Source: Planctomycetota bacterium (GTDB lineage Bacteria > Planctomycetota > J058 > JARGOJ01). From it: 47,398 nt of DNA. Shown piece after piece: positions 27,139 through 40,970 of the stretch (its first letter is position 1; each line of letters begins with the position of its first letter). Both the position numbers and the translations under genes were made by a program. The notes below the pieces were generated by a model. The model saw nothing but the letters and a program-made list of their open reading frames with translations. It was not told where the DNA came from and did not search any database. Where the stretch lies: positions 1 to 47,398 of the forward strand of contig JARGOJ010000001.1 in the NCBI GenBank assembly GCA_029210225.1, in the 5' to 3' direction.

Positions 27139-28118
27139 TTCGTAAGAGTAAATTCCGAACTTCTTTTCTCAATGAAATCGAGAAGACAGTTAAAGCACGG
27201 GGAGGGAAGGCCGAGCAGGACATTGAGGCGCTCAACGCTCCAATCGACAAGGTCTACCCCGACCCAGAGCAACCTCGCGGCACTCCGGACCCAGAGTCCG
27301 ACGACATGGTCTCCTTGCGTCGCTCCATCCAAAGCTTTGGGATTTTAGAGCCTCTTCTTGTTATTCGTGACAGCAAGGGCCTCTATCGCTTGATCGCCGG
27401 TCACAGGCGTTTATTGGCCGCTCAGAGCGAGGGACGAAGCCACGTTCCTGTTCGCGTCTTGCGAATGAAAGAAGACATCGGCCAGGTTCGCCTCATTCAA
27501 TTGACTGAGAACCTTCAACGAAAGGATCTATCACCGATTGAAGTTGGCCTTTGCCTTGTGACGGTTGCGAATTTGGGGAAGCTCAAACAAGTCGAGCTGG
27601 CTAAGAAGCTCGGCCTCTCCCAGCCAATGATTGCTTACTACCTGAGCATGAAGAAGATTTGCAAGAAGGCTGTCAAAGAGATCGAGAAGCGCTCGGAAGA
27701 CTTCACCTTTAAGTTCTTGATAAAACTCGCGAGATTGAAGAGTGAGAAAGAGCAGCTTCAAGCTCTCGAAGACTATAGACAGTCTTTAGGAGAGGGCACG
27801 AAAGTTCAGACTCTTCCGCAAGGCGCGAATGAAGACGATCAAGACATGGCTGTGCCAACCCGGCAACGTCATAAAGGTCGCGCTTATCGTTGGAGACCAA
27901 GACTACGCTTTCAGTGTCGGGACTATGATTTCGATGTGACGAGGGCAAGTCGGCCAGAACAAAAAAGCATCAAAGTCGAAGTGCCGATGGCGATGGACGA
28001 GAAGGAGATTCTCGAAGCATTCAAGAGCGTCTATCGCAAAATGACCGGCTTGGACTGGTCTCAAATTGACGCTGATGAAACCGCCGAGGAGGTGGTCGAT
28101 GAGGGAAAAACGTCTTAG
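27135..28118 (+). CDS. parB: ParB/Spo0J-family partition protein
   Basis: ATGA overlap with parA. ParB-N motifs ILEPLLVIRD..YRLIAGHRRLLAA, an HTH region, and an acidic C-terminus. Confidence 0.85.
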   Translation: MIRKSKFRTSFLNEIEKTVKARGGKAEQDIEALNAPIDKVYPDPEQPRGTPDPESDDMVSLRRSIQSFGILEPLLVIRDSKGLYRLIAGHRRLLAAQSEGRSHVPVRVLRMKEDIGQVRLIQLTENLQRKDLSPIEVGLCLVTVANLGKLKQVELAKKLGLSQPMIAYYLSMKKICKKAVKEIEKRSEDFTFKFLIKLARLKSEKEQLQALEDYRQSLGEGTKVQTLPQGANEDDQDMAVPTRQRHKGRAYRWRPRLRFQCRDYDFDVTRASRPEQKSIKVEVPMAMDEKEILEAFKSVYRKMTGLDWSQIDADETAEEVVDEGKTS

Positions 28119-28149
28119 ATAAAAGATGAATGACCCTCGTCGTAAGTTT

Positions 28150-28190
28150 GGGAAGGTCTCCTAGGGGGAGGCCTTCCCATTCTGCTTTTA
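28150..28190 (+). terminator. Hairpin after parB
   Basis: gggaaggtctcc / ggaggccttccc (one G-U pair) followed by attctgctttt. Confidence 0.5.
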
Positions 28191-28422: not shown

Positions 28423-31338
28423 ATGAGCACCACAATTACTCTTGAAGATATCCGTCGGGCATGGAAGTCTCAGGACCCAGCTTTGCCTCGACTGGTTGTA
28501 TCTCTCGCCAATATGCGAGAACCCTACAAAGCTCCTCGTAAGGACGGTGTCCTCACGTTTAGCGAATACTACAGGACCATTCGGTCGTGGCAGTTTGCTC
28601 GTAAAACGAAAGACGAGCAAGCGCACTATCGCATGGAACGGATGAAGGAGCTCGAATCTCGAGATCCGGAAGTCCCACTCCCTGATCGCGTCAAAGTATG
28701 GACGATCATCATGGAGCTTTGGGAGACCAATGGTCCTTATGAGCGTTCGTGTTTGCTTGAGATCATCGAGAAGGTCCCTCTTCGTTGGGGTGCCTGGCGA
28801 GCTTTGAAGCGAATTTTTAAGCAGGCTGAAGAGAGCCACGACACGGAGGTCTTCGGCGCGATCGCCGCCCGTGTTGACCAATCTTTTCAGAATCACCGCG
28901 ATGACGAAGTGACTCGGCGCACGATTGCTTATATGCGACGTCGGGCCTGGCGTTATCTGAGGCGTCAAGCTGAGACCTTGCCAGCAACCTATGCGGATGC
29001 TGCGGTTGATATCCTTCGCTTCTATACAATCACTTCGACATACCAGTGGCGAACGAACTGGATTTCCAGCCACATTTGGTTCCATGATCGAGGCGGCTAT
29101 AGCCGGAATTCTTTCAGCCTTCCTTGGAAGATCCCATCGATGATCAAGAGTCGCGCTTACAGCGATCTCTGGCTTCGGACTCCAAGACCGCTTTTTACTT
29201 TGCTTGAACGAGCGAAGGCCGAGCAGGTCCGGCAATTTGCTGTGGAAGCTTTGAAGACAGATTTTAGAGCTTCATTAAGGGATGTTGAGCCGTCTTGGGT
29301 GATTCGTCTGATTAATGTTCGCAGTCAGATTATTGACGACTTCGTCGTTTGGCTCTTAAAGAATGTCCCTCGCTTCGAGCAGGGCGCATTCCGCGATCTG
29401 GGCCTTCACGAGCCTGTTCTTGGTCTTTTAAGCTCCCCATCAAAAGATGCCAGGGCTTACGCGGCTGCTTACGCTAGAACTCACGCTCGCGACTTGCCAT
29501 TAGAGCAGTTGATTCGTTTGGTTGATAACGACAATGAAGCGGTCCGTCAGCTCGCGATTGACTTGATTCAAGATAGGGATCCTCGGGAAGAGGTCGGTCT
29601 TGATGCTTGGGGTCAGTTGCTTGAGACCAAGTATGGTTATGAGCTGGCGACTTCAGTTCTTCGCAAGCACTTTGGAACTCGGGAATTGCATCTTGATTGG
29701 TTCAAGGAGAGATTGCTCTCTAAGAACAATAAGGTCTTTAAGTTTGCTTCGGAGTTATTCCCTAAGGTTCACACTCCAGAGAATCTTGAGGCTCAGTTCT
29801 TCATTGATCTTGTTGAAGATGAGCGAGTGATCAAGGGGTCGAAATCGACCATTGTCAATTTCGCTTTTACAAATCTTGAGAACTACCCAATTGAGAAGAT
29901 TGGCGTTGAGTTCCTTAAGCGCTCTTACCTGCAAAGCATGACAACGAATAGTGTGCAGCAGTGGATCAATAAAGATCGCATTGATGTTCGCACATTTGGC
30001 ATCGACTTCTTTAAGTGTCTTGCATATGAGCCGAATTGGAAAGAAGACGCTTGGGTTAAGGAATTAAGAGAGAGTGGGCGCTCCTGGGCGGAGAACCTAT
30101 CCTTCTCTTGGAGTCTTTCTACGGGGGCCTTTAAGGTCCTTGGAGACCGTCGCTTCTTTAGTCCGAAGGAGCTTGGCTTCAAGTGGCTCATGGAGCTTGC
30201 TGAGTCGACTTATTCGGGCTATCACAACTTTGCCATGAACTACATGATCGACGCGTTCAAGCCTTCGGACTTTGCTCCTGAAGGATCGACGGGCGATCCA
30301 GTCTCTGCGGGATGTGATTATTTATGGGATGCGACAATTGCAGATGGAGAGGAAACGCCGCTGTCGCGTTTCACTCAAAGCTATCTGCGTCATCACCATG
30401 CCCACATTGGTAAGAAGCTAAAAGAGAAGCCCTTTGAGCAGGATGCACTTATCCCTGAATTATTTTTGAGCTTCGATCGTGTTCGAGTGCTTATGAATGA
30501 CTCACGGAAGCGCATCCGTGATTTTGCTCTAGAGTTGGCGCTTTGGGACTTTGCTCGCTGGAATCCTTCTATGGAGGATATTGTCGAGCTTTGTGAAAAT
30601 CCTTATCCGGAAGTCTTTAACTTCATGTCTAAGGCCCTCTTGGCGACAAACAAAGACGAGCATAAGCACTATCGAATAGACACTTCAAAGGTCTCTTCTG
30701 ACTCTGTCTATCGTTTCTGTGAGTCCTTAGATAAGGGCACCCGCGCTTTGGGAATGAAGTTGATTTCCAGCAATTCAAAGCTGGCTGATCCGACAGAGTT
30801 GTTTCGCCTTTCAGAGAGTCCTGACCGTCAAGTGCAGGCTTTTGTGATTCGTTCTATCTGGTCTCTTTACAGGGATCGAGGCATCACAATGCATTGGACG
30901 CCTCCTCCCAGACCCGCTGCGAAGTCGAAGAAGGGTGCGTCCAAAGAGGAGAAGAAGGCCGAGCAAGAGGCGAAGCTTGTTGTTTCTTCCGGACCTCCTC
31001 AGAAGCCAGATAACTTGCCAGCGGAGCCGATTGTTCTTCGTGATTTCATGAGAACGATTCTGTTTACTTTGGCGCCTGCTCGTTTACCGAAATCTTCGAA
31101 GTCTAAAAGTGGTGAGGGGGTTCGTTTGAAACCCTTGCCAGCTCGTAAAGCCAAATTGTCGCTCATCGAGATGATTCGGGATATTGCTGTGGAGGACAGA
31201 GACTTCGCAGTCTTTGTCACGCCTCTTTTAGAGGAGTTCATGGCGTCCCATGGAAAGAGTGAACATGACGCTTGTCTTGTTGCTCTGACTCGTATTGACA
31301 AGGCTCATGGAGACCTTCAAATCAAGGAGGGGTCTTGA
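28423..31338 (+). CDS. 971-aa predicted all-helical (ARM/HEAT-like) protein with a basic disordered linker near the C-terminus; first gene of the RT operon
   Basis: Long uninterrupted ORF with RBS GGAAGG. Leu/Arg/Glu-rich helical-repeat character (e.g. NDNEAVRQLAIDLIQDRDP). I saw no catalytic motif. The K-rich segment is AAKSKKGASKEEKKAEQEAK. Confidence 0.7.
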   Translation: MSTTITLEDIRRAWKSQDPALPRLVVSLANMREPYKAPRKDGVLTFSEYYRTIRSWQFARKTKDEQAHYRMERMKELESRDPEVPLPDRVKVWTIIMELWETNGPYERSCLLEIIEKVPLRWGAWRALKRIFKQAEESHDTEVFGAIAARVDQSFQNHRDDEVTRRTIAYMRRRAWRYLRRQAETLPATYADAAVDILRFYTITSTYQWRTNWISSHIWFHDRGGYSRNSFSLPWKIPSMIKSRAYSDLWLRTPRPLFTLLERAKAEQVRQFAVEALKTDFRASLRDVEPSWVIRLINVRSQIIDDFVVWLLKNVPRFEQGAFRDLGLHEPVLGLLSSPSKDARAYAAAYARTHARDLPLEQLIRLVDNDNEAVRQLAIDLIQDRDPREEVGLDAWGQLLETKYGYELATSVLRKHFGTRELHLDWFKERLLSKNNKVFKFASELFPKVHTPENLEAQFFIDLVEDERVIKGSKSTIVNFAFTNLENYPIEKIGVEFLKRSYLQSMTTNSVQQWINKDRIDVRTFGIDFFKCLAYEPNWKEDAWVKELRESGRSWAENLSFSWSLSTGAFKVLGDRRFFSPKELGFKWLMELAESTYSGYHNFAMNYMIDAFKPSDFAPEGSTGDPVSAGCDYLWDATIADGEETPLSRFTQSYLRHHHAHIGKKLKEKPFEQDALIPELFLSFDRVRVLMNDSRKRIRDFALELALWDFARWNPSMEDIVELCENPYPEVFNFMSKALLATNKDEHKHYRIDTSKVSSDSVYRFCESLDKGTRALGMKLISSNSKLADPTELFRLSESPDRQVQAFVIRSIWSLYRDRGITMHWTPPPRPAAKSKKGASKEEKKAEQEAKLVVSSGPPQKPDNLPAEPIVLRDFMRTILFTLAPARLPKSSKSKSGEGVRLKPLPARKAKLSLIEMIRDIAVEDRDFAVFVTPLLEEFMASHGKSEHDACLVALTRIDKAHGDLQIKEGS

Positions 31339-31341
31339 TCC

Positions 31342-34300
31342 ATGTCTAATAAACAGACAATGTATCTTCAGTACCGCGGCCAAATAAGAGCTCTCGCGAG
31401 TCGGAACGAATATCTATATTTCGTAACGACTCACGAGGAAGATCAGGCCACGGCGCTCTACCGATTGAATTCGACGACGGCTAAGTTAGCGGCGATCAAG
31501 CTTCATGGCGGGAGCGGAAAAGCACTATCTATTACTGATAAAGAGCTTTTCATTGCCAACGTCGAAGATTCTTTAGAGCGCTTTCGTTTTGACACTGAGA
31601 AGGTTGAGCCTTTCGGGCCAGCTCTTGGTGGCGCAGTTATGGGCTTGGCGTCCGTCGCAAAGAATCGCTTGGCGGTTCTCGCGGGTTCGGACCTTGTCAT
31701 TCTCTCTAAAGAGTCAGGAGCTGAATTACAGCGCTTTGATATCGGTGAGGAATGTCACTCAATTGCTGTGAATCCCGATGGTCAATGGCTTGCTGTGGGT
31801 AGCAATCTTGGAACTGTCGCGATTTTCGAGTGTGAGAATAAAGACGACTTCGTTAAAGGCGATGCTCAGAAGCTCCACGAAGGGGCCGTGAAGGCGATGA
31901 TCTTCGATCGGGAAGAGCTTCGTCTCTTGTCGACTGGTTCTGACTGTAAGCTGAAAATGACTCACGTTCGTGGTCGTCTCGATCCTGAAGATCGTGGTGG
32001 CAAGAGCAATCATGAGCAACCAGCCGTTCGCCTTATTGATGGTCCGATGGCTGGCCCCGAAGGAGTCTTCTATAGTGGGGGCACCGATAAGACTTTCAAG
32101 GCCTGGCCAGCAGGATTAAATAAGAAGCGTCCATTCACCATGCGCGATGGTGTCGGCGTTGTTGTTGACATGGCCCTTGTTGAGCATAAGAAGCGGCCTC
32201 ATTTGGTTGTGGCATCAAACGATGCGACGCTTCGCTTCTGGGAGCTAGAAGATACAGGGCGCCCTAAAGAGCGGGTTCTTATCTGTCGGGGTGCTATGGC
32301 TCGCGCCAAGCATGAGCTCAAACAAAAAGAGACCGAGCGAAGAGACGCTGTCTTAGACTTACTGGCGAAATACAACGATACTCAGTCGATTAGCCTACTC
32401 ACTGAGCAGGCTCTCAACGACGGGGACTACAAGCTTCGAGTCAAGTCAACCAAGCTCATCGCGGATCTTGGTAATCTCAGAACAATGACCTCTCTTGAGC
32501 AACTGCTCAACTCAGCAGATGAGGGTGTTCGGGAAGAGGCCTTGACGGGTTTAAGGTCTCTTGAAGGCCAAGAATCTATTCGTCCTCTGCAATTGGCGAT
32601 TAAGACTGGGAAAAAAGACGTTGGCTTACGTGCGATTACTGGTCTCGAAGAGCTATCTTCAAGCAATGATCAAGCTCTGGTTGAGCTAACAAAAGCTCTT
32701 GAAGTGAATACTACAGAGATTCGCACAGCGGCGCTTGTTAGCTTAGAGAACGTCTACGGTTCCGAACAGCTCTCCGAGGCTCATCTTACGGGTTTAAGGT
32801 CGAGCAAAGCAGATATTCGCAGCCTCTCTCTCACTTGGGCCTTTCAAAAAGGTCTCCTCGACGAAGAAGCCATTCAAGCGGCGCTTCGCCGTCATGGAGA
32901 AGATGACAGCGCGGATGTGCGTCATACTGCCTTTCTTGTGTCTACGCTCTCTCGTCCTTCTTTGACGAAGGCTCTACGAGAGCGAGATAGCGATTTGCAT
33001 CGCAACTTTGTGGAACTTGAGACTCACGGCAAGAACATCGAAGAAGTTGATTTGCCAAAGGCTCCAACAGAGGTGACAGTTGCTCCTGGAGACCTTGACC
33101 ACTTCGATTTGAATCCATTGTTGCAAGCGATGGCGAGTCGGGCTTTGGATACTTGTCTCCGTGGCGCGACCTCTTTAGCTTTACTTCAAGATTCCCGGGC
33201 TTTCGGAACCTTGCTTCAGTTAAGCCGGGAGAAAGATGATCAGACTCGGGTTGAGGTTTGTAAGGCGCTTAAGAACCTTAATGATCCCCGAGGTATTGCC
33301 CGCCTGCGTCTCATGATTCGAGACGGTCAAGCGGGAGTTCGCGATGCGGCCTTCAGCGCATTGATTCAATTGGAGTCAGAGACTCCCCTTGAGGCTGCTC
33401 AAGCGGGGTTAAATGCCGATCATGAAGATGTGCGGCGTCGCGCTCTTCAATTACTTATTGAGCAAATTAAAGCGAATCCTCCGCAATCGAAGGAAGAGCT
33501 TTCTTGGCGCTTAATAGAGCGTTCTCTCAATGATTCTTTTGCAGAAGTACGCAGTGAAGCATTTAAGGCGTGTTTGAACCTTCAATTCGCTGGAGGTGGT
33601 GAATCAACGCTGCGCTTTGCGTTGAAGAGTCTTCATAGAGACGTTCGCAACGAAGTCTTCGTCGAGATTATGGCCCAGCTAAATCAGGATTGGGCTTGGC
33701 CATTACTTCTAGAGATGCTTTGCGATCCAGATAGCTCACTCCGCAAAGAAGTCTTTGCTTTCGCAACAAAGAGGGCCAAGGGGCGGACCATTGAGCTGCT
33801 TTCGGCTTCTCTCGATTGTCCTTACAACGATCTCCGTGGAGAAGCGACAAAAGCTCTAAATACATGTAAGGAAGAGGGCGCGGAGGCGCTTCTTTTCAGG
33901 GCTTTGGATGATTCTGAAGAGAGTGTTCGTCAGTTAGCATTGAGCGCCCTCTTGAATACTGGTTCACCGGCGCTGTCACGAGTTATGAAGAGCAAGTATC
34001 CCGACGTTCGGGCTCGGGCCGCTCACGCTCGGGCTTTGGAGGGTGACGAGGATTCAATGATTCCTCTCTTGCAGCTTGTCACAGAGGATGAGCCTGATAT
34101 CTCTGACTTCAAGGCGAAGTGGCAAGAGCGTGTTGAGCTTGCTCTTAAGGGACTTGCAGAGCTTGGAGCTCCAGGAGCTCTCGATACTTTGGAGCCTCTT
34201 TTAGAGAGTAAGATCCAAGGAATACGTCGGGGCGCAGCCAAGGCAATGGCTTACTGTTCAAGACCTGACAATAAAACGGCTCTACTTGCGGCTTTAAGAC

Positions 34301-37300
34301 ACTCTGATGCTGCTATTAAAATGTCTGCTGCCCTCGGATTGGCAGCGTGCGCAGACACAACAGGAACCTCTGTGATCTTTGGAGGCGAAGGATCTGGAGG
34401 AGCATCTCCGGATGTGGCTTTGAGAGCTGCTTTAGCTCTTGGAGAAAAGGCTGCTAACAACCTCCTTTCATTCCTTGATTCACCCCAAGATGATATTCGC
34501 TCTCGGGTTTTCATGGCTCTCATGCTTCTAGAGGCAAGCAGCCCTGGCCCTGAGGGAACACCGGAGCGGTGTTTGGCGGGATTGTCGGCAGATAGTCCTG
34601 ATATTCGTATGCGTTCGGCGGAGGCGTTGGAGAACTACTCCGACCCCAAGGCTTTCGGTGACTTTGTCGTAAAGCTCTTCAATGATCGCAGTGACGATAA
34701 GCCTTGGACAGTGGAATCGGGAGTCATTGAGACTCTCGGAGATGTTCTTGCTCATGGCGATTCTATGCTTCGCTACCGGGCCGGAGGCCTTCTAGCGTCT
34801 TTGAGAGAGAAGAAGCAAGATCGCTTCGATCGAGCTTGGGGTCGCTTTAGTCGTCGCTTTGACAATGAGATCAGCGCGGCCAGGGCTAAGAAAGAATCCA
34901 TGTCCAGCTCGGCAACTCGTCCTGGAGCTGAAGAGACGGCGCGTCTGGTCTTCGGTACTTATGTCGGACTCAGTCGTTTGCAAGATCACAGCTCGGCCGT
35001 TCAAATTCGTCAGACTGCGCTTCGTCGTCTCTTTGAAGCAAGTGAGAAGAACAGCTCGCTTAACAATTCAGTGAAGCCTGTTTTTGTCTTGGCTCTCGGT
35101 GATTCAAATAACAGCGTTCGCAAGCAAGCCTTCGAGTATCTGTCAAAGCTTATGCCAGATGTCGCGTCTCTTTGCACTCAAGCCTTGTCTTCAGGTCAGC
35201 GAGATGTGGGGGCCTTGGGCTTTCAGAAGCTTGTTGATGAGGGGGATGCTCAATCAAGCCGCCAAGTGCTTGAGAGGGTGCTTAAGAACAACGTGGATGG
35301 TCTTGAGTTTGAGGCTTCTCAGATACTCGGCAAACAAGTGGGTTTGATTCCAGCCTTAGAGCTTGGCTTTGAAGCGAAGTCTGAGAGCTTGAGGGGTGAT
35401 TCAACACGTCAGATTGCCAAGAACTATGAGGACAATGAAGAGGCTGCAAACGCATTGCGACGGGCTCTTAAAACTCGGTATCGTGGCGTAAAGATCTTGG
35501 CTGCCATGGAGTTGGCTTCTAAGCAAGATCCAGCGGCTTTCGATTTCTTAAAGAGTCTTCTTCTCAGTGATCGAAAGCGAGAGCAGAAGAACGCGATTAA
35601 GAGCTTGAAGAGGCTTGGAGATAAAAGAGCAGGAGCTCTGTTTCTCGATCGTATTGATAACGACCCAGCGGGGACTGCGCTTCATGCGGAGCTCTTTTCC
35701 GGAGTTGGTGAAACTCGTAGCGAGGCGGTCCTTGATCGCCTGCTTCAATCGATTAAGAAGAATAAGAATCGCAATGAAGCTTTTGAAGCAGCCTTTATTA
35801 TCACTGGCTACGACCAAGCGGTCGGCGATGATTTGAAGGATCCCGGCTGGGAAGAGAAGCAGGAGCCAAGAAACGGAGGGGCTTTAGCGAAGTTGATGGA
35901 AGTGACTTACAGGATCTCTGATGAGTCAAAGCTCTCAAGGTTAATCCCAGCTGCTCGTTGGTGCCGAAGCGAGGAAGTCACTGATATTCTTAATTCCCTC
36001 GCTTACTTCCCCAAAGAGAAGGTTCGCCATGAAGTGGTTGAAGCTTTAGGGTGGCGGGCAAGAGAGCGGAATGGCTCAACAGAGATCTTAGAGAAGCTTC
36101 TTAAACATGACGATGGCGTCACAGGTTTCTTGGCGGCGGAGGGGCTTGCTCTCTCTGGTGGCAAAGAAGGCCTTTCAGTTCTCCAGGCGAGCGTTGAGTT
36201 GCTCGCTGACGTGAATCAGCGACGTCGGGCGGTGAAGGCACTCGGTAAGCTCGGTGACGAGCAGGCCTTGGATCTCTTGCTTCGTATTATCAATGATACC
36301 GGTCATGCTCTCCAGGAAGAGTCGGCTGAGGCCCTTGGTCACATGAGTGAATCAGACCAGGCAGAGAGTGTCTTCAAGACGCTCTCAAGGCTTGCGGAAG
36401 GAAGTTATGGCGTTGCTCTCAGTGCGATGACTGGCTTGCGTTGGTTCGATTCTATGGACGCTTGGAGCTTTATTAGGAATCGGGCTGCGGATAACTCATG
36501 GATGGTTCGAGAGCATGTGGCGAAGCTGCTTGCCCACGACAAGGATCCAGAGGCACGGAATATTCTCATTAAGAGGATTGAGTCGGACAATGACTCAGAC
36601 GTAATTGAAGCAGCGGTAAAAAGCCTTAAGAAGATCTGCGGTGAAGACTCTCTCGATGCGGATTACGCGCTTGTTTGCAGTCAGCATTCTCACATGGTCA
36701 ATAAGGCCCTTGAGCGTTTGAAGGAGAAGGGCGATTCGTCTGTTCTTCTTGAGATCTTGCCTAAGGTGTCTAGCAACCACGTCAACTCAGTTGTTGAGGT
36801 TCTTCTTTCTCGGACTCCGTTGCCTATTGCGGCGGCGGCGAAGGTCCTTGAGACAAGCACTCAAGAGCGAACGATTAAGATTGCCTCGCAGATTTTAGGA
36901 CGCGGCGGAGAAGAGGCGAAAGAATACGCCGGATCTTTGGTGAAGGCTTGCTCTCGTTGGCAGGAAATGTGGGTCAAAGAGCGCTCTGAGATTTCAGATG
37001 GGGATCGTAATCTCTACACAAAAATGAAGGCATTAACTGAGACTTACCGGATCATGCTTTGGTCTTGTGGTCGCTTGAATGCTGGTGGAGAAGCGTTGAT
37101 CGCGGCGTCTGATCCTAAGTATTTCACAGAGATTCGAGAAGCAGCGCTCACTGGTTTGAGTATGGGTCTTGGTGGTGACGCTGGGATTGAGGCTCTTGCT
37201 AAAGCGGTGGTCGATGCAGACGCGTCGATTCGCTCTCTTGCGTCTTCAGGCCTTACAAAGTTAGCGCCAGAGAAGGCCGCGAGCCTTGTTTCTTCGGTCC

Positions 37301-37698
37301 TTGATGATCGAACAAGCTTGAATCGTTTGCTCTCGGGTGTTGATAACGACGACTCTCGGATAGCTCTTCGGAGCGCCGCAGCGACGGTTCATCACCAGGG
37401 TGTCGCATTGCCTCACTTGATCAATCGCGGAGATATTGACGGCCTTGGAGCGGCTTTAGCAGACGCCAAGCTTCCCGAGGCGACAAGACTCGGAGCGATT
37501 GAGGGCTTGGCTCGTATCGCTAGCGTTCAAGCGGAGACTGTCATTGTGAAAATGGCGAAGGACGAGGCAGAAGACGAAGACTTGCGGAAAGCGGCCTGGC
37601 GCGCCTTGCGCCGATCGAAGCGCTATCGGGCTCGAAAAGAGGCTTTAGCGAAATTGACGAGTGGGGACAAAGCGGACGGGTCAAAAGCTGACGCTTGA
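31342..37698 (+). CDS. 2118-aa giant: N-terminal WD40-like beta-propeller + about 1800 aa of HEAT/PBS-lyase-type repeats
   Basis: WD-like blades DGQWLAVGSNLGTVAIFE, STGSDCKLKMT, SGGTDKTFKAW and ASNDATLRFWE. Dozens of D-x-R-x-x-A-x-x-AL units follow (DVRHTAF, GVRDAAFSAL, DVRRRALQLL, EVRSEAFKAC, SVRQLALSAL ...). It starts 3 nt after the previous stop. Confidence 0.8.
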   Translation: MSNKQTMYLQYRGQIRALASRNEYLYFVTTHEEDQATALYRLNSTTAKLAAIKLHGGSGKALSITDKELFIANVEDSLERFRFDTEKVEPFGPALGGAVMGLASVAKNRLAVLAGSDLVILSKESGAELQRFDIGEECHSIAVNPDGQWLAVGSNLGTVAIFECENKDDFVKGDAQKLHEGAVKAMIFDREELRLLSTGSDCKLKMTHVRGRLDPEDRGGKSNHEQPAVRLIDGPMAGPEGVFYSGGTDKTFKAWPAGLNKKRPFTMRDGVGVVVDMALVEHKKRPHLVVASNDATLRFWELEDTGRPKERVLICRGAMARAKHELKQKETERRDAVLDLLAKYNDTQSISLLTEQALNDGDYKLRVKSTKLIADLGNLRTMTSLEQLLNSADEGVREEALTGLRSLEGQESIRPLQLAIKTGKKDVGLRAITGLEELSSSNDQALVELTKALEVNTTEIRTAALVSLENVYGSEQLSEAHLTGLRSSKADIRSLSLTWAFQKGLLDEEAIQAALRRHGEDDSADVRHTAFLVSTLSRPSLTKALRERDSDLHRNFVELETHGKNIEEVDLPKAPTEVTVAPGDLDHFDLNPLLQAMASRALDTCLRGATSLALLQDSRAFGTLLQLSREKDDQTRVEVCKALKNLNDPRGIARLRLMIRDGQAGVRDAAFSALIQLESETPLEAAQAGLNADHEDVRRRALQLLIEQIKANPPQSKEELSWRLIERSLNDSFAEVRSEAFKACLNLQFAGGGESTLRFALKSLHRDVRNEVFVEIMAQLNQDWAWPLLLEMLCDPDSSLRKEVFAFATKRAKGRTIELLSASLDCPYNDLRGEATKALNTCKEEGAEALLFRALDDSEESVRQLALSALLNTGSPALSRVMKSKYPDVRARAAHARALEGDEDSMIPLLQLVTEDEPDISDFKAKWQERVELALKGLAELGAPGALDTLEPLLESKIQGIRRGAAKAMAYCSRPDNKTALLAALRHSDAAIKMSAALGLAACADTTGTSVIFGGEGSGGASPDVALRAALALGEKAANNLLSFLDSPQDDIRSRVFMALMLLEASSPGPEGTPERCLAGLSADSPDIRMRSAEALENYSDPKAFGDFVVKLFNDRSDDKPWTVESGVIETLGDVLAHGDSMLRYRAGGLLASLREKKQDRFDRAWGRFSRRFDNEISAARAKKESMSSSATRPGAEETARLVFGTYVGLSRLQDHSSAVQIRQTALRRLFEASEKNSSLNNSVKPVFVLALGDSNNSVRKQAFEYLSKLMPDVASLCTQALSSGQRDVGALGFQKLVDEGDAQSSRQVLERVLKNNVDGLEFEASQILGKQVGLIPALELGFEAKSESLRGDSTRQIAKNYEDNEEAANALRRALKTRYRGVKILAAMELASKQDPAAFDFLKSLLLSDRKREQKNAIKSLKRLGDKRAGALFLDRIDNDPAGTALHAELFSGVGETRSEAVLDRLLQSIKKNKNRNEAFEAAFIITGYDQAVGDDLKDPGWEEKQEPRNGGALAKLMEVTYRISDESKLSRLIPAARWCRSEEVTDILNSLAYFPKEKVRHEVVEALGWRARERNGSTEILEKLLKHDDGVTGFLAAEGLALSGGKEGLSVLQASVELLADVNQRRRAVKALGKLGDEQALDLLLRIINDTGHALQEESAEALGHMSESDQAESVFKTLSRLAEGSYGVALSAMTGLRWFDSMDAWSFIRNRAADNSWMVREHVAKLLAHDKDPEARNILIKRIESDNDSDVIEAAVKSLKKICGEDSLDADYALVCSQHSHMVNKALERLKEKGDSSVLLEILPKVSSNHVNSVVEVLLSRTPLPIAAAAKVLETSTQERTIKIASQILGRGGEEAKEYAGSLVKACSRWQEMWVKERSEISDGDRNLYTKMKALTETYRIMLWSCGRLNAGGEALIAASDPKYFTEIREAALTGLSMGLGGDAGIEALAKAVVDADASIRSLASSGLTKLAPEKAASLVSSVLDDRTSLNRLLSGVDNDDSRIALRSAAATVHHQGVALPHLINRGDIDGLGAALADAKLPEATRLGAIEGLARIASVQAETVIVKMAKDEAEDEDLRKAAWRALRRSKRYRARKEALAKLTSGDKADGSKADA

Positions 37699-37719
37699 TA
37701 GATTTCGGAGTGTTTTCAA

Positions 37720-39594
37720 ATGTCGACTGATGGAAATCCAGCAAACGCTGAAGAAGGCCCAGAAGGAGGCGATTACGTTTTCCGCTATGGAGGACCCAGT
37801 GAGGTTCGCCCAGAGGAAGATGGAAGTCGGCTCTCCCTTGTCGCTAATGAGGCTCGTAGGGCTGTTCGAGCTGAGGGCCAAGTCAAGGATCCTTTGCGAT
37901 TCCGCGAAGCCTTGTCGGTCATGTATGCCGTTGTTGGTAGTGACTATCGATATGTGCCCAAGGATCGCACGGCTTATCTTGCTTACTTAAGGCAACAACA
38001 GGCGGCACCTAAAAAGAGTGTCTGGGAAGCTCAGAAGTCTTATTTCGATTGGATTCAGAGAAACGACCCCTCGGCGTATCTCATCCTTGATCCAGTAATC
38101 TCTGTTCAACCTGATGGTCTCTTCTTTGAGGTCTTCAGTAAGGACGAGTCAACCTATGCAAAGCTGCAGGTTGATTGGGATTGCGTGGATATTGAAGGAG
38201 AATTGAAATACGGCACGACAAACATTGACTTCTCAAAGGGCTTCTTCGATAGCATTCAACAAATGCGCGGCTATAGAAAGACTCGTCTCTCTGTAGGCAA
38301 GGAAGAAGTGAAGATAGAGACCGATGGGGAGCAACGCCTTGAGAAGAAAGTGAAGGTTCCAGATAGCTGGATTCGTGCTTTCCTCCAAGTGCAATCAGCG
38401 GCGACTCTGCCTCATATCAATTTTTCAATTGCTCCTATCGACTTCTACAATGTCCTTCGTTATCTGCGTTTTCACTCAGATCAAAAGGGCAAGGGCCGGG
38501 GTTTAAGAATTGAATTGATCCCTGGAGAGCAGCCACGCCTGGTGCTTGAGCCTTGGGAGAAGGTCTTTACGACAAGTGGAGACGTTTATAAAGGTAACAG
38601 CTCTGAGGTGATCCGTATTTGGGGTCGTCGCCGCCTTATGTTAGTGCGTCGCTTGCTCCCATTCTTGGATAGCATTGACGTTCATGTGCTCGGATCGGGG
38701 ATGCCAAGCTTCTTTGTCTTCAAAGCTGGCCCAATGACTTTAACAATGGGTCTCTCCGGCTGGACGGCGAACAATTGGGCTCAGATTGTCAGCTTTGACT
38801 TGCTCTTGCCTCGTCAAAGAACGGCGAAAGATGAGCTTGAGAAGATCTTGGCTCATCTCTCAGATAAGTATTTCGCGACTCGAAAAGAGATTGGCGAAGC
38901 CATAGGAATCAACGATTCCAGGCTTATGGCTGCGCTTCAATTAGGTTGTCAGCAGGGCTCCTTGATGTATGACATCGACGGAGAAGTCTATAGGCTTCGC
39001 CAATTGACAGAGCAGCCCCTCGATTGGGATCGCCTTGAATTCCGCAATGATAATGAGCGAGTGGCTCACGATCACTTGGCAAAGGGTGCCATGACTCTTG
39101 AATCGGAGAACCGGGTTCACAGTAAAGGCATTGAAGTCGTTGGTTCTATTCATGTAGAAGCCGATCAACGGGACTATCGCGTCGAGTTTATTATCACGCC
39201 TATTGGTTTCTTAACTCGGGTCAAATGCACATGCCGGATGTTCCGGACACATCGCCTTAAGAATGGTCCTTGCAGCCATATTGTTGGGCTTCGTCTCTTC
39301 TATGCGAAGGAAGAAGCGCGGCGCCGTGAACTGGCCAGCAAAGGTGAACTGCGAGACACTGTCACAAACGAAACAAAGACCTTCGCCAAGCGTCACAACA
39401 AGGGCGAAGAGGTCTATCAGCTTTCTCTCAATCACCAACGTATGAAAGTTCGTTGGGGGCAGCGAGGAAGTCGTCTGCGAATCCAAAACCTTGTTTTCAA
39501 CTCCTTAGAAGATGCCCGCGAAGCCTATTACGCCAAGGTCGACGGACTTGAATCTAAAGGTTATCTGGATGCAACAGAAGGTGGGGTAGCCTGA
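37720..39594 (+). CDS. SWIM zinc-finger + C-terminal WGR domain protein, 624 aa
   Basis: SWIM finger CTCRMFRTHRLKNGPCSH (CxCx12CxH) at 39226-39279. WGR domain YQLSLNHQRMKVRWGQRGSRLRIQNLVFNSLEDAREAYYAKVDGLESKGY. Confidence 0.8.
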   Translation: MSTDGNPANAEEGPEGGDYVFRYGGPSEVRPEEDGSRLSLVANEARRAVRAEGQVKDPLRFREALSVMYAVVGSDYRYVPKDRTAYLAYLRQQQAAPKKSVWEAQKSYFDWIQRNDPSAYLILDPVISVQPDGLFFEVFSKDESTYAKLQVDWDCVDIEGELKYGTTNIDFSKGFFDSIQQMRGYRKTRLSVGKEEVKIETDGEQRLEKKVKVPDSWIRAFLQVQSAATLPHINFSIAPIDFYNVLRYLRFHSDQKGKGRGLRIELIPGEQPRLVLEPWEKVFTTSGDVYKGNSSEVIRIWGRRRLMLVRRLLPFLDSIDVHVLGSGMPSFFVFKAGPMTLTMGLSGWTANNWAQIVSFDLLLPRQRTAKDELEKILAHLSDKYFATRKEIGEAIGINDSRLMAALQLGCQQGSLMYDIDGEVYRLRQLTEQPLDWDRLEFRNDNERVAHDHLAKGAMTLESENRVHSKGIEVVGSIHVEADQRDYRVEFIITPIGFLTRVKCTCRMFRTHRLKNGPCSHIVGLRLFYAKEEARRRELASKGELRDTVTNETKTFAKRHNKGEEVYQLSLNHQRMKVRWGQRGSRLRIQNLVFNSLEDAREAYYAKVDGLESKGYLDATEGGVA

Positions 39595-39596
39595 TC

Positions 39597-40904
39597 ATGT
39601 CGAACGGTACCGATCTCAACAAACTCTGGGAAGATATCGGCCGCGCTGGCGGCATTGATAGCTACGTAGACAAACAACTCCGCGAAAAAGGCTTCTTAGT
39701 AAGCCGTCGCAACACCGAGAATATGAGCAAGGCCAAATTAAAGGCCTACAAAGAATCTCTTAAGAAGGAAGCTGCTGAGAAGAAGCGCTTTCACAAAGAA
39801 GCCTGGCTCGCCTACCGCGCCAATCATATTGTCCATCTTGGCGAGAACGTTTACTTCAACGACGCGGACAACTTTGATCGCTGGGATCTCCCCAACGCCG
39901 AAGAGCGCGCTGATGAAAACGAACTTCCAAAGTTAGACAATCCCAAGCAGCTCGCCGAAGCTCTCGGCATCACGATCTCCGACCTTCGCTGGTTGGCCTA
40001 TCACCGCGATGCCGCGACCAGCCTTCATTACCGCGCTTTCACCATTCCCAAGCGAGACGGATCAAAGCGGCAGATCTGGGCGCCATTGCCAAAGCTCAAA
40101 GCAGCTCAACACTGGATTCTCCGCAACGTCGTCGAGCACCTCCCTGTTCATGGCGCGGCCCATGGCTTCCTACCAGGGCGCTCAATTGCCTCGAACGCCG
40201 CCGCCCATACGAACTCTAAGATTGTTGTCAAAGTTGACCTCAAGGACTTCTTCCCAACAGTGACTCTTCCCCGAGTCAAGGGAATCTTCCGCAAGGCTGG
40301 CTATAGAGAGCAAGTCTCCACTCTACTCGCCCTCATCTCCACCGAGTCTCCTCGCGAGATCGTCGAGAAGGACGGGAAGACCTATTACATTGCTATGGGA
40401 CCACGGTGTTTGCCTCAGGGAGCTCCAACAAGTCCAGGTTTGACCAACACCCTCTGCCTCCGTCTCGACCGCCGCTTAACAGGGCTCGGGAAGAAACTCG
40501 GCTGGCGCTATACCCGATATGCTGATGACTTAACCTTCAGCTTGCCAAACGATCACAAAGGCGCCCCTAAGCTGGGCCTTCTCCTTGGTTCTATCGGTCG
40601 CATCGCTGCTGACGAAGGCTTCGCGGTTCATCCCAAGAAGACCCGAGTTGCTCGTAAAGGATCGCGCCAGAAGATCACTGGTCTTGTTGTTAATGGTGAG
40701 GGGAACCCTCGGGTGCCTCGCAAATTGAAGCGTGAGATTCGCGCCGCCATTCACAACTTAAAGAATGGTAAGGGTCTCAAAGAGGGCGATAGCTATAGCC
40801 GCATTGCGGGATACGCCGCCTATATTTGCATGACGGAACCAGAGCTTGGTCAAAAGCTTATTAAAGAGCTCGCTTCTATTGATCCTCCTGCAGAATCAGA
40901 GTAG
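39597..40904 (+). CDS. Retron-type reverse transcriptase with an N-terminal extension of about 100 aa
   Basis: Motifs YRAFTIPKRDGSKRQIWAP, LKAAQHWILRNV, VDLKDFFPT, LPQGAPTSPGLTN, YTRYADDLTFS (YADD at 40518-40529) and QKITGLVVNG (40674-40682 = ITG). It starts 2 nt after the SWIM-WGR stop. Confidence 0.9.
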   Translation: MSNGTDLNKLWEDIGRAGGIDSYVDKQLREKGFLVSRRNTENMSKAKLKAYKESLKKEAAEKKRFHKEAWLAYRANHIVHLGENVYFNDADNFDRWDLPNAEERADENELPKLDNPKQLAEALGITISDLRWLAYHRDAATSLHYRAFTIPKRDGSKRQIWAPLPKLKAAQHWILRNVVEHLPVHGAAHGFLPGRSIASNAAAHTNSKIVVKVDLKDFFPTVTLPRVKGIFRKAGYREQVSTLLALISTESPREIVEKDGKTYYIAMGPRCLPQGAPTSPGLTNTLCLRLDRRLTGLGKKLGWRYTRYADDLTFSLPNDHKGAPKLGLLLGSIGRIAADEGFAVHPKKTRVARKGSRQKITGLVVNGEGNPRVPRKLKREIRAAIHNLKNGKGLKEGDSYSRIAGYAAYICMTEPELGQKLIKELASIDPPAESE

Positions 40905-40929
40905 AAGCCACTTAGAAGAAGGCAAATAG

Positions 40930-40970
40930 GAAGAAGGAGCCTCGTTAATCAGGCTCCTTCTTCTATTTTT
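40930..40970. terminator. Bidirectional rho-independent terminator between the RT operon and convergent fumC
   Basis: 12-bp perfect stem gaagaaggagcc / ggctccttcttc, 10-nt loop, then TATTTTTT. Confidence 0.8.

What the first reader, a model, noticed from the sequence alone, without database searches (positions are those of the whole stretch)
28423..40904. Four-gene operon coupling a retron-type RT to a SWIM-WGR protein and two giant helical-repeat proteins: candidate undescribed RT-based system
Seen: four same-strand ORFs (971, 2118, 624 and 435 aa) are separated by only 3, 21 and 2 nt. They are bracketed by hairpins at 28150-28178 (after parB) and 40930-40963 (shared with convergent fumC), so they read as one transcription unit of about 12.5 kb. 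The last ORF is a clear retron-type RT with an intact YADD. The third ORF combines a SWIM finger with a WGR domain. The second is a WD40 propeller fused to about 1800 aa of HEAT repeats, and the first is another helical-repeat protein. Scanning the translations by eye, I found no Walker A, nuclease, TIR, protease, toxin-like or TM segment in any of the four, so the RT is the only evident enzyme. Known (from memory, not searched): characterised RT defence systems (retrons, DRT/UG, AbiA/AbiK/Abi-P2) pair the RT with a compact effector and/or an adjacent ncRNA. SWIM, WGR and large helical-repeat (DUF4132-type) proteins co-occur in enigmatic MoxR/vWA loci such as E. coli molR/yehI-yehLMPQ, which contain no RT. 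Inference: this is a hybrid architecture in which an RT replaces or joins the SWIM/WGR/repeat-protein module. I cannot assign it to a named system. Its position directly after parAB on an apparently accessory segment fits a conflict, defence or plasmid-maintenance role.
Basis: partly seen in the sequence, partly recalled or inferred. Interest (0 to 1): 0.88.

Follow-up and report, generated by a model that had tools for sequence, protein, structure and literature searches.

The report
Known type XIII retron, ncRNA found

Summary
The claim that the system is undescribed does not hold. All four proteins match PADLOC's retron type XIII models almost end to end, and Mestre et al. 2020 describe this RT + SWIM + HEAT/ARM system, including a variant with two HEAT genes. 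The gene order is kept in 90 of 90 related loci.

New here:
- **The missing msr-msd ncRNA is at 25669-25962.** It folds far better than shuffles (z = -15.7). It is homologous to an element directly upstream of ORF1 in 83 related loci. Covariation is strong (58 of 76 pairs change on both sides).
- **ParA/ParB separate the ncRNA from ORF1 only in this lineage.**
- **The distal msd stem is hypervariable.** Some relatives carry 2-3 tandem ncRNA copies that differ only there.
- **The SWIM-WGR protein models with a PCNA-like clamp fold.** No nuclease fold appears among the 50 listed structural matches.
- **The contig may be a ~47 kb circular replicon.**

The biological function of type XIII retrons is still untested. 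Verdict: a new member of a known kind, of moderate interest.

The parts
25669..25962 (+). msr-msd non-coding RNA gene of the retron (the whole element, from a1 to a2)
   Evidence: MFE is -164.2 kcal/mol against -81.3 +/- 5.3 for shuffles, z = -15.7. nhmmer hit at 25702-25929, E = 2e-39. CM hit of 86 bits. Homologous to the element upstream of ORF1 in 83 loci. Covariation: 92.8% of cells paired and 58 of 76 pairs changed on both sides.
25669..25710 (+). a1, the 5' arm of the terminal duplex; it pairs with a2 at 25925-25962 (35 bp)
   Evidence: Helix coordinates come from the fold. Across 56 copies, each copy's own flanks pair at a mean of -41.5 kcal/mol, against -29.3 +/- 7.4 for flanks from other loci.
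25711..25711 (+). Predicted branching (priming) guanosine, in the invariant UAGC just after a1
   Evidence: A13, G14 and C15 are invariant in 55 copies. Position. Its role is inferred by analogy with characterised retrons; the Ec86 'UUAGC' context is recalled from memory.
25715..25766 (+). msr hairpins: GGUGC/GCACC, GAGAGGCG/CGCCUCUC, and a weak third hairpin
   Evidence: Helices 3 and 4 are 99.6-99.8% paired with compensatory changes. Coordinates.
25768..25924 (+). msd template region (~150 nt): a conserved basal stem, a 39-bp stem whose distal part is hypervariable between loci (25789-25828 with 25856-25896), and a conserved apical hairpin (25837-25855)
   Evidence: In helix 7, 28 of 29 pairs covary. 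The variable stem is 0.33 identical on average, against 0.73 for the scaffold. Coordinates.
25925..25962 (+). a2, the 3' arm of the terminal duplex
   Evidence: (I3).
26140..27138 (+). parA. A lineage-specific insertion between the ncRNA and ORF1, probably not a retron component
   Evidence: AAA_31 E = 1e-37, plus CbiA and MipZ. Homologues occur near this system only in L081 and L087, out of 167 loci.
27135..28118 (+). parB. Part of the same insertion
   Evidence: ParB_N E = 5e-13 and HTH_ParB. PHROG ParB-like families.
28149..28179 (+). Terminator-like hairpin after parB. It implies that ORF1-RT has its own promoter in 28180-28422
   Evidence: 14-bp stem followed by a T-rich tail. No sigma-70-like promoter was found by the consensus scan.
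28423..31338 (+). ORF1, a HEAT/ARM solenoid protein (PADLOC HEAT-ARM_XIII PDLC02921). It lacks the BRCT insert that most homologues have
   Evidence: 1117 bits, residues 4-967. AF2 pLDDT 84.7, all-alpha. PDB matches are karyopherins, CAND1, PP2A-A and condensin HEAT subunits. BRCT insert seen in homologues.
31342..37698 (+). ORF2, a WD40 beta-propeller followed by a giant HEAT-repeat protein (PADLOC HEAT-ARM_XIII PDLC02919)
   Evidence: 2009 bits, residues 5-2100. Pfam HEAT_2 E = 1e-76 and beta-propeller hits at residues ~30-300. PDB sequence hits are to HEAT-type alphaRep repeat proteins only.
37720..39594 (+). ORF3, the SWIM_XIII protein. It has a PCNA-like clamp-fold core that carries the conserved D124/D132/E137/D170/E208 ('DEDE') residues, then a helical/winged-helix region, a SWIM finger (C503-H520) and a C-terminal WGR domain (~550-612)
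   Evidence: 623 bits. Motifs. AF2 pLDDT 81.3, pTM 0.76. All top 50 Foldseek PDB hits are PCNA or sliding clamps, E ~6e-7, TM 0.6-0.67 normalised to the target.
39597..40904 (+). Retron reverse transcriptase, type XIII (RT clade 10)
   Evidence: RT_XIII 546 bits, against 316 bits for the next model. NAAAH, YADD and ITG motifs. Ec86 RT 3e-43.
40929..40964 (+). Terminator-like hairpin between the RT gene and the convergent fumC
   Evidence: 14-bp stem followed by a T run. Fold z = -3.3.

Best explanation
The locus is a type XIII retron of the four-gene subtype: HEAT/ARM protein, WD40-HEAT giant protein, SWIM-WGR protein and RT. Its msr-msd non-coding RNA gene lies at 25669-25962. In relatives this RNA gene sits about 100 nt upstream of ORF1, at the 5' end of the operon. 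In this lineage a parA-parB cassette plus a terminator has been inserted between the two.

**Shown:**
- the identity of all four proteins;
- perfect synteny;
- a conserved, covarying, retron-shaped RNA on the operon strand.

**Inferred from how characterised retrons work:**
- The RT binds the msr hairpins.
- It primes from the 2'-OH of the conserved G (25711) next to the a1/a2 duplex.
- It copies about 150 nt of msd template into a multicopy single-stranded DNA that folds into a long hairpin.
- This RT-msDNA particle is then bound by the nucleic-acid-binding SWIM-WGR/clamp-like protein and the two solenoid scaffolds, forming a large complex.

**Most speculative step:** the complex surveys for an invader or a DNA perturbation, with the hypervariable distal msd stem acting as the specificity or decoy element. 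On triggering, it would release an activity of the conserved acidic site of ORF3, or another toxic output, giving defence.

**Confidence by step:** about 0.9 that this is a type XIII retron, about 0.8 that 25669-25962 is its msr-msd RNA, and about 0.45 that the biological role is defence. The overall figure given is a compromise between these.
For: - PADLOC type XIII models match all four proteins nearly full length. Mestre et al. 2020 describe the same components, the DEDE motif, the CxCx12CxH finger and a two-HEAT-gene variant. All of these motifs are present and conserved here.
- The RT has the retron hallmarks and is closest to solved retron RTs.
- Synteny holds in 90 of 90 loci, with frequent 1- or 4-nt gene overlaps.
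- ncRNA stability: z = -15.7.
- ncRNA homology: E = 2e-39 to an element found upstream of ORF1 in 83 of 142 evaluable loci, always on the + strand, at a median of 107 nt from ORF1.
- ncRNA covariation: score 0.523, against 0.150 for shuffles (0 of 500 reached it) and 0.09-0.16 for slid controls. G.U pairs fit only the + strand.
- The terminal duplex is kept even though its sequence varies.
- The ~150-nt template matches the msDNA lengths encoded in the names Ne144, Mx162 and Sa163, which Mestre et al. list as type XIII.
- ORF3 is built from nucleic-acid-binding modules: a clamp fold, SWIM and WGR.
Against: - No experiment on any type XIII retron's function was found in the held literature. msDNA production from this particular ncRNA is untested.
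- The ncRNA is 13.6 kb from the RT start, not contiguous with it as in canonical retrons.
- About 40% of related loci (mostly Myxococcota, plus L082 and L083) show no copy of this RNA within the fetched sequence.
- No recognisable toxin or effector domain is present.
- The published 'DEDE transposase-like nuclease' idea is not backed by the fold search, which gives a clamp fold.
- High protein conservation, apparent vertical inheritance and a conserved neighbourhood are unusual for defence islands.
- I could not run Mestre's type XIII covariance models, and Rfam has no matching family.
Confidence: 0.7

Rival explanations
1. Same molecular machine (a type XIII retron that makes msDNA), but its role is a domesticated cellular one in DNA repair, replication or chromosome biology rather than anti-phage abortive infection. 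The msDNA hairpin would act as a built-in DNA-structure ligand for a PARP/BRCT/PCNA-like sensing complex.
For: - Mestre et al. report that type XIII trees correlate with host 16S (0.78) and suggest vertical inheritance and possible domestication.
- Conservation across phyla is very high: RT 58-71%, ORF3 ~52% and ORF1 ~50% identity.
- The same flanking genes recur in the window, L083 and L085.
- The domain set (WGR, BRCT in most ORF1 homologues, a PCNA-like fold, HEAT solenoids) resembles eukaryotic DNA-damage-response proteins.
- There are no relatives on phages or viral contigs.
Against: - Every retron whose function appeared in the papers returned by my searches acts in phage defence (abstracts).
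- A hypervariable msd stem and tandem diversified copies look like arms-race features.
- The system is absent from many bacteria, so it is not essential.
- No experiment bears on this either way.
Confidence: 0.25
2. In this lineage the retron is functionally coupled to ParAB as a plasmid-maintenance or addiction module of a ~47 kb circular replicon. The ncRNA-parA-parB transcript would tie msDNA supply to partition, so that cells losing the replicon are killed.
For: - parAB lies exactly between the ncRNA and ORF1, and the same layout is kept in the 96%-identical relative.
- The window is a whole 47,398-nt contig.
- Its end and start are adjacent and collinear in a relative's 44.6-kb contig.
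- It encodes a primase, a DnaB-like helicase and an integrase.
Against: - ParA/ParB homologues are absent from the other 165 loci, many of which lie on 7-16 Mb chromosomes.
- A terminator separates parB from ORF1.
- Plasmid databases hold only distant homologues, and those are on megaplasmids.
- Circularity is inferred, not shown; there is no terminal overlap.
Confidence: 0.08
3. One reading: a previously undescribed RT-based system, a hybrid in which an RT joined the SWIM/WGR/DUF4132 module of MoxR-vWA loci, with no ncRNA partner.
For: The domain vocabulary (SWIM, WGR, long helical repeats) is shared with the E. coli yehF-yehI-yehLMPQ locus. Pfam alone leaves ORF1 and ORF3 essentially unannotated.
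Against: - It is named and modelled as retron type XIII.
- There is no MoxR or vWA gene in the window.
- ORF3 and YehQ share only the SWIM finger, and ORF1 and YehI show no similarity.
- A retron-type ncRNA is present.
Confidence: 0.02
4. The structured element at 25669-25962 belongs to parAB (a centromere or parS cluster, or a regulatory leader) and has nothing to do with the RT.
For: It lies 178 nt upstream of parA and contains long inverted repeats.
Against: The same element, with the same conserved blocks, lies directly upstream of ORF1 in 83 loci that have no parAB. Its covariation pattern, including G.U pairs, indicates a structured RNA on the operon strand rather than a protein-binding DNA palindrome.
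Confidence: 0.02

Closest known systems
Retron type XIII (Mestre et al. 2020, NAR, PMC7736814; PADLOC models RT_XIII, SWIM_XIII, HEAT-ARM_XIII, WGR_XIII). Includes the classical myxobacterial retrons Mx162, Mx65, Sa163 and Ne144
   Same: - RT of the same clade by best HMM.
- A SWIM protein with the DEDE motif and the CxCx12CxH finger.
- HEAT/ARM accessory proteins, including the described variant with two HEAT genes.
- A long msd (~150 nt) and a long a1/a2 duplex.
- The same host phyla (Myxococcota, Planctomycetota).

   Different: - The ncRNA is at the far 5' end of the operon (13.6 kb from the RT here), not next to the RT as I recall for Mx162.
- A parAB cassette is inserted between the ncRNA and ORF1.
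- ORF1 lacks the BRCT insert that most homologues have.
- The WGR domain sits at the C-terminus of the SWIM protein, not on the HEAT protein as in cluster 216_1.
- The carrier may be a small circular replicon.

Retron Ec86/Eco1 and other structurally solved retrons (Ec78, Ec83, Eco8, Ec67, Kva2)
   Same: The RT is homologous (E = 3e-43 to Ec86). It has the same NAXXH/YADD/xTG motifs and the same ncRNA logic: an a1/a2 duplex, a G next to a1 in a UAGC context, msr hairpins and an msd stem-loop.
   Different: Those retrons pair the RT with one compact enzymatic effector, such as a nucleosidase, an ATPase-nuclease, an OLD nuclease or a HEPN protein. Here there are about 3,700 aa of non-enzymatic-looking scaffold and binding proteins and no recognised toxin.
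E. coli yehF-yehH-yehI-yehK-yehLMPQ locus (WGR, DUF4132, MoxR AAA+, vWA, SWIM)
   Same: It co-occurs SWIM, WGR and very long helical proteins in one gene cluster. YehQ (614 aa) is about the size of ORF3.
   Different: The window has no MoxR or vWA genes, and the yeh locus has no RT. ORF3 aligns with YehQ over 27 columns only (the SWIM finger, which sits at the other end of the protein; probability 3.7%). ORF1 and YehI show no significant similarity (0.6%), and ORF1 has no DUF4132 Pfam hit.
DRT/UG and Abi reverse-transcriptase defence systems
   Same: An RT embedded in a multigene locus that is annotated as defence-related.
   Different: The RT scores far better against retron models than against any DRT model (Drt2 28.9 bits against a cutoff of 390). 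The retron-specific motifs and a retron-shaped ncRNA are present.

Membership tests
Retron (general) | Retron-type RT with YADD, region X (NAXXH) and region Y (xTG) | tested here: met
   NAAAH, YADD and ITG are in the translation. NCBIfam retron St85/Ec67 families at 1e-58 to 2.5e-68. Ec86 RT at 3e-43.
Retron (general) | An msr-msd ncRNA gene in the locus: terminal a1/a2 inverted repeats, a conserved G next to a1, short msr hairpins and a long msd stem-loop | tested here: met
   Window 25669-25962, z = -15.7. 58 of 76 pairs covary and 92.8% of cells are paired. a1/a2 pairing is locus-specific. UAGC is invariant.
Canonical contiguous (msr-msd)-RT cassette (Ec86 layout; also Mx162 as I recall it) | The ncRNA lies immediately upstream of the RT gene | tested here: not met
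   The ncRNA is 13.6 kb upstream of the RT start in the window. In 83 relatives it lies upstream of ORF1, more than 11 kb from the RT. This is a difference of layout. The type XIII classification rests on the RT clade and the accessory proteins.
Retron (general) | Production of 2'-5' branched msDNA | not testable with these tools
   Needs expression and nucleic-acid analysis.
Retron type XIII | RT belongs to clade 10 (RT_XIII) | tested here: met
   PADLOC RT_XIII gives 545.9 bits over residues 5-429, and the next model gives 316 bits. This rests on the best HMM; no phylogeny was built.
Retron type XIII | An associated cluster 114_1-type protein with Dx7[D]x4Ex30-32Dx37E and a C-terminal SWIM CxCx12CxH | tested here: met
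   SWIM_XIII 622.7 bits. D124, D132, E137, D170 and E208 are invariant or nearly so in 56 sequences. CTCRMFRTHRLKNGPCSH.
Retron type XIII | HEAT/ARM accessory protein(s) upstream of the SWIM gene (the two-gene variant) | tested here: met
   PDLC02921 1117 bits and PDLC02919 2009 bits, both near full length. Order is conserved in 90 of 90 loci.
Retron type XIII | Match to the published type XIII ncRNA covariance models | not testable with these tools
   The models and supplements are not held. Rfam has no matching family.
Retron type XIII | Anti-phage or other biological function | not testable with these tools
   No experimental paper on type XIII was found.
MoxR-vWA-SWIM-WGR-DUF4132 loci (E. 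coli yeh type) | MoxR AAA+ and vWA genes in the cluster | tested here: not met
   Neither was found in any window ORF that was scanned.
MoxR-vWA-SWIM-WGR-DUF4132 loci (E. coli yeh type) | Homology of the SWIM protein to YehQ and of the helical protein to YehI/DUF4132 | tested here: not met
   hhalign probability is 3.7% (SWIM finger only) and 0.6%. No DUF4132 hit at E <= 10.
DRT/UG or Abi RT systems | RT best matched by UG/DRT/Abi models | tested here: not met
   The top 25 PADLOC RT hits listed (of 49) are all retron RT models. NCBIfam Drt2 gives 28.9 bits against a cutoff of 390.
ParABS partition system (the inserted cassette) | A ParA-type ATPase plus a ParB with the N-terminal and HTH domains | tested here: met
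   AAA_31/CbiA and ParB_N/HTH_ParB. PHROG ParA and ParB families. A parS site was not looked for.

The most novel reading that the evidence does not exclude
The four-gene type XIII retron is not a toxin-sequestering abortive-infection device. It would be a sequence- or structure-programmable surveillance complex. The hypervariable distal stem of the msDNA, diversified between species and between tandem ncRNA copies while the scaffold stays 96-99% identical, would set specificity as a guide, decoy or bait. A PCNA-like/SWIM/WGR reader and two giant HEAT scaffolds would carry out recognition, much like a bacterial counterpart of eukaryotic DNA-damage-sensing assemblies. In this lineage it would ride on a small ParAB-partitioned circular replicon.
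Probability: 0.12. Interest if true: 0.8.

Novelty: new member of a known kind. Interest (0 to 1): 0.35.

Why it matters
As a claimed new system it does not stand: it is retron type XIII. The family still matters. It includes the first retrons ever found (Mx162 and its relatives), and no experimental study of its function turned up in the held literature.

This analysis gives concrete handles for experiments:
- the exact ncRNA and the predicted priming G for this subtype, which sit where a search immediately upstream of the RT or within +/-10 kb of it would miss them;
- a hypervariable msd stem, with tandem diversified ncRNA copies in relatives;
- a predicted clamp-like fold, rather than a nuclease fold, for the conserved 'DEDE' region of the SWIM protein.

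The parAB insertion and the possible 47 kb circular carrier are curiosities of this lineage.

Tried and rejected
- **Rfam.** A gathering scan of the whole window and an E-value scan of 27500-42000 gave no relevant family.
- **Other places for the ncRNA.** I first looked in the ORF1 leader (28180-28425, z = -1.6), the 3' end of ORF3 (z = +1.1) and the RT-fumC spacer (only a terminator). All were rejected.
- **Supplementary tables of Mestre et al.** Not held.
- **Downstream-of-RT regions.** They share no conserved sequence between loci.
- **Divergent ncRNA in loci without a hit.** I searched the Myxococcota loci, L082 and L083 with nhmmer --max, motif scans and a covariance model of the msr half. 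Nothing was found. L083 has a 28-nt inverted repeat of similar geometry but no msd-like hairpin and no sequence similarity, so it is left open.
- **Sliding-window folding scan.** It timed out.
- **Metagenome scans.** The scan with the single protein found nothing. The scan with the alignment gave only relatives of <=54% identity, so I could not determine whether the 79-87% relatives carry parAB.
- **Mobile-element collections.** Viral contigs and phages gave no relatives. Plasmids gave only distant homologues on megaplasmids.
- **The window's variable msd stem.** No phage match.
- **E. coli YehQ and YehI.** No homology beyond the SWIM finger.
- **Named Mx162 RT.** I could not retrieve it for a direct ncRNA comparison, because the RT search lists only the best 120 hits.

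Full report
**1. Observation**

| ORF | Coordinates | Length |
|---|---|---|
| ORF1 | 28423-31338 | 971 aa |
| ORF2 | 31342-37698 | 2118 aa |
| ORF3 | 37720-39594 | 624 aa |
| ORF4 (RT) | 39597-40904 | 435 aa |

The gaps between them are 3, 21 and 2 nt. Terminator-like hairpins followed by T runs lie at 28149-28179 and 40929-40964.

The domain calls hold:
- **ORF4 is a retron-type RT.** RVT_1 scores E = 8.5e-20, and NCBIfam places it in the retron St85/Ec67 families. It has the NAAAH, YADD and ITG motifs. The closest solved structure is the retron Ec86 RT at 3e-43.
- **ORF2 is a WD40 propeller followed by a very long HEAT array.** HEAT_2 scores E = 1e-76.
- **ORF1 is an all-alpha solenoid.** The AF2 model has pLDDT 84.7. 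PDB neighbours are karyopherins, CAND1, PP2A-A and condensin HEAT subunits.
- **ORF3 has SWIM and WGR features.** The Pfam scores are below threshold. The sequence nevertheless shows the exact CxCx12CxH finger and a 'RWGQRGS...KGY' WGR signature. Public sources label its homologues 'SWIM zinc finger' or 'WGR domain' proteins.

ParA, ParB and fumarase C flank the unit.

**2. What it is**

PADLOC's models for retron type XIII match all four proteins almost end to end:

| Protein | PADLOC model | Score |
|---|---|---|
| ORF1 | HEAT-ARM_XIII PDLC02921 | 1117 bits |
| ORF2 | HEAT-ARM_XIII PDLC02919 | 2009 bits |
| ORF3 | SWIM_XIII | 623 bits |
| RT | RT_XIII | 546 bits (next model 316 bits) |

Mestre et al. 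2020 (PMC7736814) define type XIII as RT clade 10, the clade of Mx162, Mx65, Sa163 and Ne144. The type includes a protein with a Dx7[D]x4Ex30-32Dx37E motif, a winged helix and a CxCx12CxH SWIM finger. [quoted passage not shown] In ORF3 the motif maps to D124, D132, E137, D170 and E208. All five are invariant or nearly so in 56 homologues.

Synteny is perfect. Across 167 related loci from genomes and metagenomes, all 90 loci that hold all four genes keep the same order and strand. Gene junctions often overlap by 1 or 4 nt. Hosts are mainly Myxococcota (Nannocystis, Minicystis, Polyangia) and Planctomycetota (Singulisphaera, Gemmata, Tundrisphaera, Tautonia), plus Desulfosarcina.

**3. The missing ncRNA**

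A retron needs an msr-msd RNA. Nothing convincing lies next to the RT, in the ORF1 leader or at the 3' end of ORF3, and Rfam has no matching family.

Comparing the regions upstream of ORF1 between loci revealed a conserved element of about 230 nt on the operon strand. In the window, the homologous element is a strikingly structured sequence upstream of parA.

- *Stability.* Window 25662-25968 folds at -164.2 kcal/mol, against -81.3 +/- 5.3 for shuffles (z = -15.7).
- *Homology.* A profile of the core hits window 25702-25929 at E = 2e-39. It also hits upstream of ORF1 in 83 of 142 evaluable loci, always on the + strand, at a median of 107 nt from ORF1.
- *Covariation.* On 55 copies, 92.8% of cells are paired (72.5% in shuffles). 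58 of 76 pairs change on both sides. The covariation score is 0.523, against 0.150 for shuffles (0 of 500 reached it) and 0.09-0.16 for slid controls. Frequent G.U pairs fit only the + strand.
- *Terminal duplex.* The flanking arms pair with their own partner at -41.5 kcal/mol, against -29.3 +/- 7.4 with arms from other loci.

The anatomy in the window is canonical:

| Feature | Coordinates |
|---|---|
| a1/a2 duplex (35 bp) | 25669-25710 with 25925-25962 |
| Invariant UAGC with the predicted priming G | G at 25711 |
| msr hairpins | 25715-25766 |
| msd template (~150 nt) | 25768-25924 |

The msd template has a conserved base, a 39-bp stem and a conserved apical hairpin. The ~150-nt template length fits the 144-163 nt msDNAs after which the classical type XIII retrons are named.

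**4. Differences from the usual picture**

(a) *Position of the ncRNA.* It lies at the 5' end of the operon, more than 11 kb from the RT gene (13.6 kb in the window). A recent survey searched within +/-10 kb of the RT with the published models, or de novo in the 600 bp upstream of the RT. Such searches could miss it.

(b) *parAB insertion.* Only in the window's lineage (the window plus two 96-100% relatives, L081 and L087) is the ncRNA separated from ORF1 by parA, parB and a terminator. ParA/ParB homologues are absent from the other 165 loci. The RT must act on the RNA in trans anyway, so this split is tolerable. It does imply a separate promoter for ORF1-RT, which the consensus scan did not find.

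(c) *Hypervariable msd stem.* The distal ~25 bp of the msd stem varies greatly while pairing is kept: 28 of 29 pairs covary. Thirteen loci carry two or three tandem ncRNA copies upstream of ORF1. In most of the arrays compared, the copies are 96-99% identical in the scaffold but only 29-63% identical in that stem.

(d) *Fold of the SWIM protein.* The AF2 model of ORF3 has pLDDT 81.3 and pTM 0.76. Its 50 best PDB matches are all PCNA or sliding-clamp structures, with E ~6e-7 and TM 0.6-0.67 normalised to the target. No transposase or RNase H fold appears among them. From the secondary-structure layout, I infer that the clamp-like part is roughly residues 120-350, which would place the conserved 'DEDE' acidic residues in a clamp-like double domain. 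The search output does not give the aligned query range. A winged-helix region, the SWIM finger and the WGR domain follow.

(e) *No BRCT in ORF1.* Most ORF1 homologues carry a BRCT insert, and the window's protein lacks it.

**5. Mechanism**

*Shown:* a retron RT, its accessory proteins and a retron-shaped, covarying RNA form a conserved unit.

*Inferred from characterised retrons:* the RT binds the msr and primes on the 2'-OH of G25711. It copies the msd into a hairpin msDNA of ~150 nt. The RT-msDNA particle then associates with the accessory proteins.

*Speculative:* ORF3, built from nucleic-acid-binding modules, reads the msDNA. ORF1 and ORF2 scaffold a large complex. A change in the msDNA or in the complex on infection triggers an output. 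No toxin domain is recognisable. The output could be the acidic site of ORF3 or something not yet definable.

The main rival keeps the same machine but gives it a domesticated role in DNA metabolism. Apparent vertical inheritance, very high conservation, a shared chromosomal neighbourhood and the WGR/BRCT/PCNA-like/HEAT domain set all point that way.

A coupling to plasmid maintenance is possible only for this lineage.

**6. Comparison with known systems**

It is a member of retron type XIII, and all the sequence-level criteria I could test are met. It departs from the canonical contiguous ncRNA-RT cassette.

But profile comparison shows only the SWIM finger in common with YehQ (probability 3.7%) and nothing with YehI (0.6%). 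The window has no MoxR or vWA genes.

It is not a DRT/UG or Abi system.

**7. Context**

The window is a whole 47,398-nt contig. Besides the retron it encodes:
- a primase;
- a DnaB-like helicase;
- a giant PD-(D/E)XK-UvrD protein;
- ParAB;
- a short integrase;
- housekeeping-like genes, including EF-P, fumarase, a secretin, sugar epimerases and fatty-acid enzymes.

In an 87% relative on a 44.6-kb contig, the sequences homologous to the window's end and start are adjacent and collinear. This suggests a circular replicon of about 45-47 kb. There is no terminal overlap to prove it.

No relatives occur on phages or viral contigs, and only distant ones occur on megaplasmids.

**8. Verdict**

The claim of novelty is not. 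This is a new member of a known, bioinformatically defined but experimentally unexplored retron type.

What this analysis adds:
- the located ncRNA;
- the lineage-specific parAB insertion;
- the hypervariable and tandem msd stems;
- the clamp-like fold of the SWIM protein.

Interest is moderate, at 0.35.

Noticed in passing
window 1-3283 and 45894-47398; L085 16837-21302: The window's end (GT2 gene, 47252-47398) and start (secretin, EF-P) are adjacent and collinear in an 87% relative whose contig is 44.6 kb. The window is itself a whole 47,398-nt contig. This suggests a circular ~47 kb replicon that carries both replication/partition genes and housekeeping-like genes. No terminal overlap was found.
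   Followed up: partly
L021 9216-9889; L025 9203-9880; L047, L052, L066, L073 (2 copies each); L067 8865-9808 (3 copies); L059 (3 full copies plus 1 partial, spread over about 10 kb): Tandem arrays of the retron ncRNA lie upstream of ORF1. In most arrays the copies are 96-99% identical in the scaffold but only 29-63% identical in the distal msd stem. In L067 the copies are more diverged (scaffold 74-78%, stem 17-30%), and in L051 the two copies are identical.
   Followed up: partly
ORF1 homologues (e.g. L070 9992-13249); window ORF1 residues ~618-628: Most ORF1 homologues (~1075 aa) carry a classic BRCT domain inserted in the solenoid, and NCBI names them 'BRCT domain-containing protein'. The window's lineage (938-981 aa forms) lacks it.
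   Followed up: partly
L085 7578-8126; L082 9984-10550: The 77-87% relatives have an extra ~185-aa gene between ORF2 and ORF3. It encodes three ribosomal L7/L12 C-terminal-domain-like repeats (Ribosomal_L12 E = 3e-19). It has no PADLOC model and is absent from the window, where the gap is 21 nt.
   Followed up: partly
window 16892-23110 (+): A giant 2072-aa protein fuses a PD-(D/E)XK nuclease domain to a UvrD-type helicase. It hits PADLOC's GajB and RTasHel helicase models at the domain level only. It may be a separate defence or repair gene on the same contig.
   Followed up: no
window 9317-13434 (+): A Toprim primase-like protein, a DnaB-like helicase and a 635-aa protein with a C-terminal HTH lie in a row. 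This replication-module-like cluster is consistent with an autonomous replicon.
   Followed up: no
window 42746-43363 (+); L085 13078-13692: A short (205 aa) tyrosine-recombinase-type integrase is conserved next to fumC in the 87% relative. Next to it, the epimerase-epimerase-GT2 block is inverted and relocated compared with the 53% relative L083.
   Followed up: no
L081 position 1 = window 25862; L087 position 1 = window 25876: Two independent Logan contigs of close relatives both begin inside the long perfect msd hairpin. This probably reflects assembly breaks at the inverted repeat, and it explains why their ncRNA is truncated.
   Followed up: yes
window 28157-28176 and 28238-28257: The arms of the parB terminator hairpin can alternatively pair with a segment 61 nt downstream (20 nt, 80% complementary). 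This could be an alternative structure in the ORF1 leader. The leader as a whole is not unusually stable (z = -1.6).
   Followed up: no
L083 9507-9534 and 9779-9806: In the 53% relative, which has no parAB and no detectable ncRNA of the family, a 28-nt, 96%-complementary inverted repeat with 244 nt between the arms lies ~195 nt upstream of ORF1. That is the same geometry as the window's a1/a2 pair. It has no sequence similarity and no long inner hairpin (z = -4.1). It may be a divergent or replaced ncRNA.
   Followed up: partly
window 9024-9229 vs window 47252-47398 (via L085 18189-18440 and L083 452-642): A sequence of about 200 nt that overlaps a 62-aa ORF in relatives appears twice in the window in opposite orientations. 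One copy is near the contig end, and the other is upstream of the primase gene.
   Followed up: no
L070 8440-9992; L161; L004: A few other loci also have something inserted between the ncRNA and ORF1. In L070 it is a 360-aa opposite-strand ORF of unknown function in a 1.5-kb gap. The ncRNA-ORF1 junction therefore seems to tolerate insertions.
   Followed up: no
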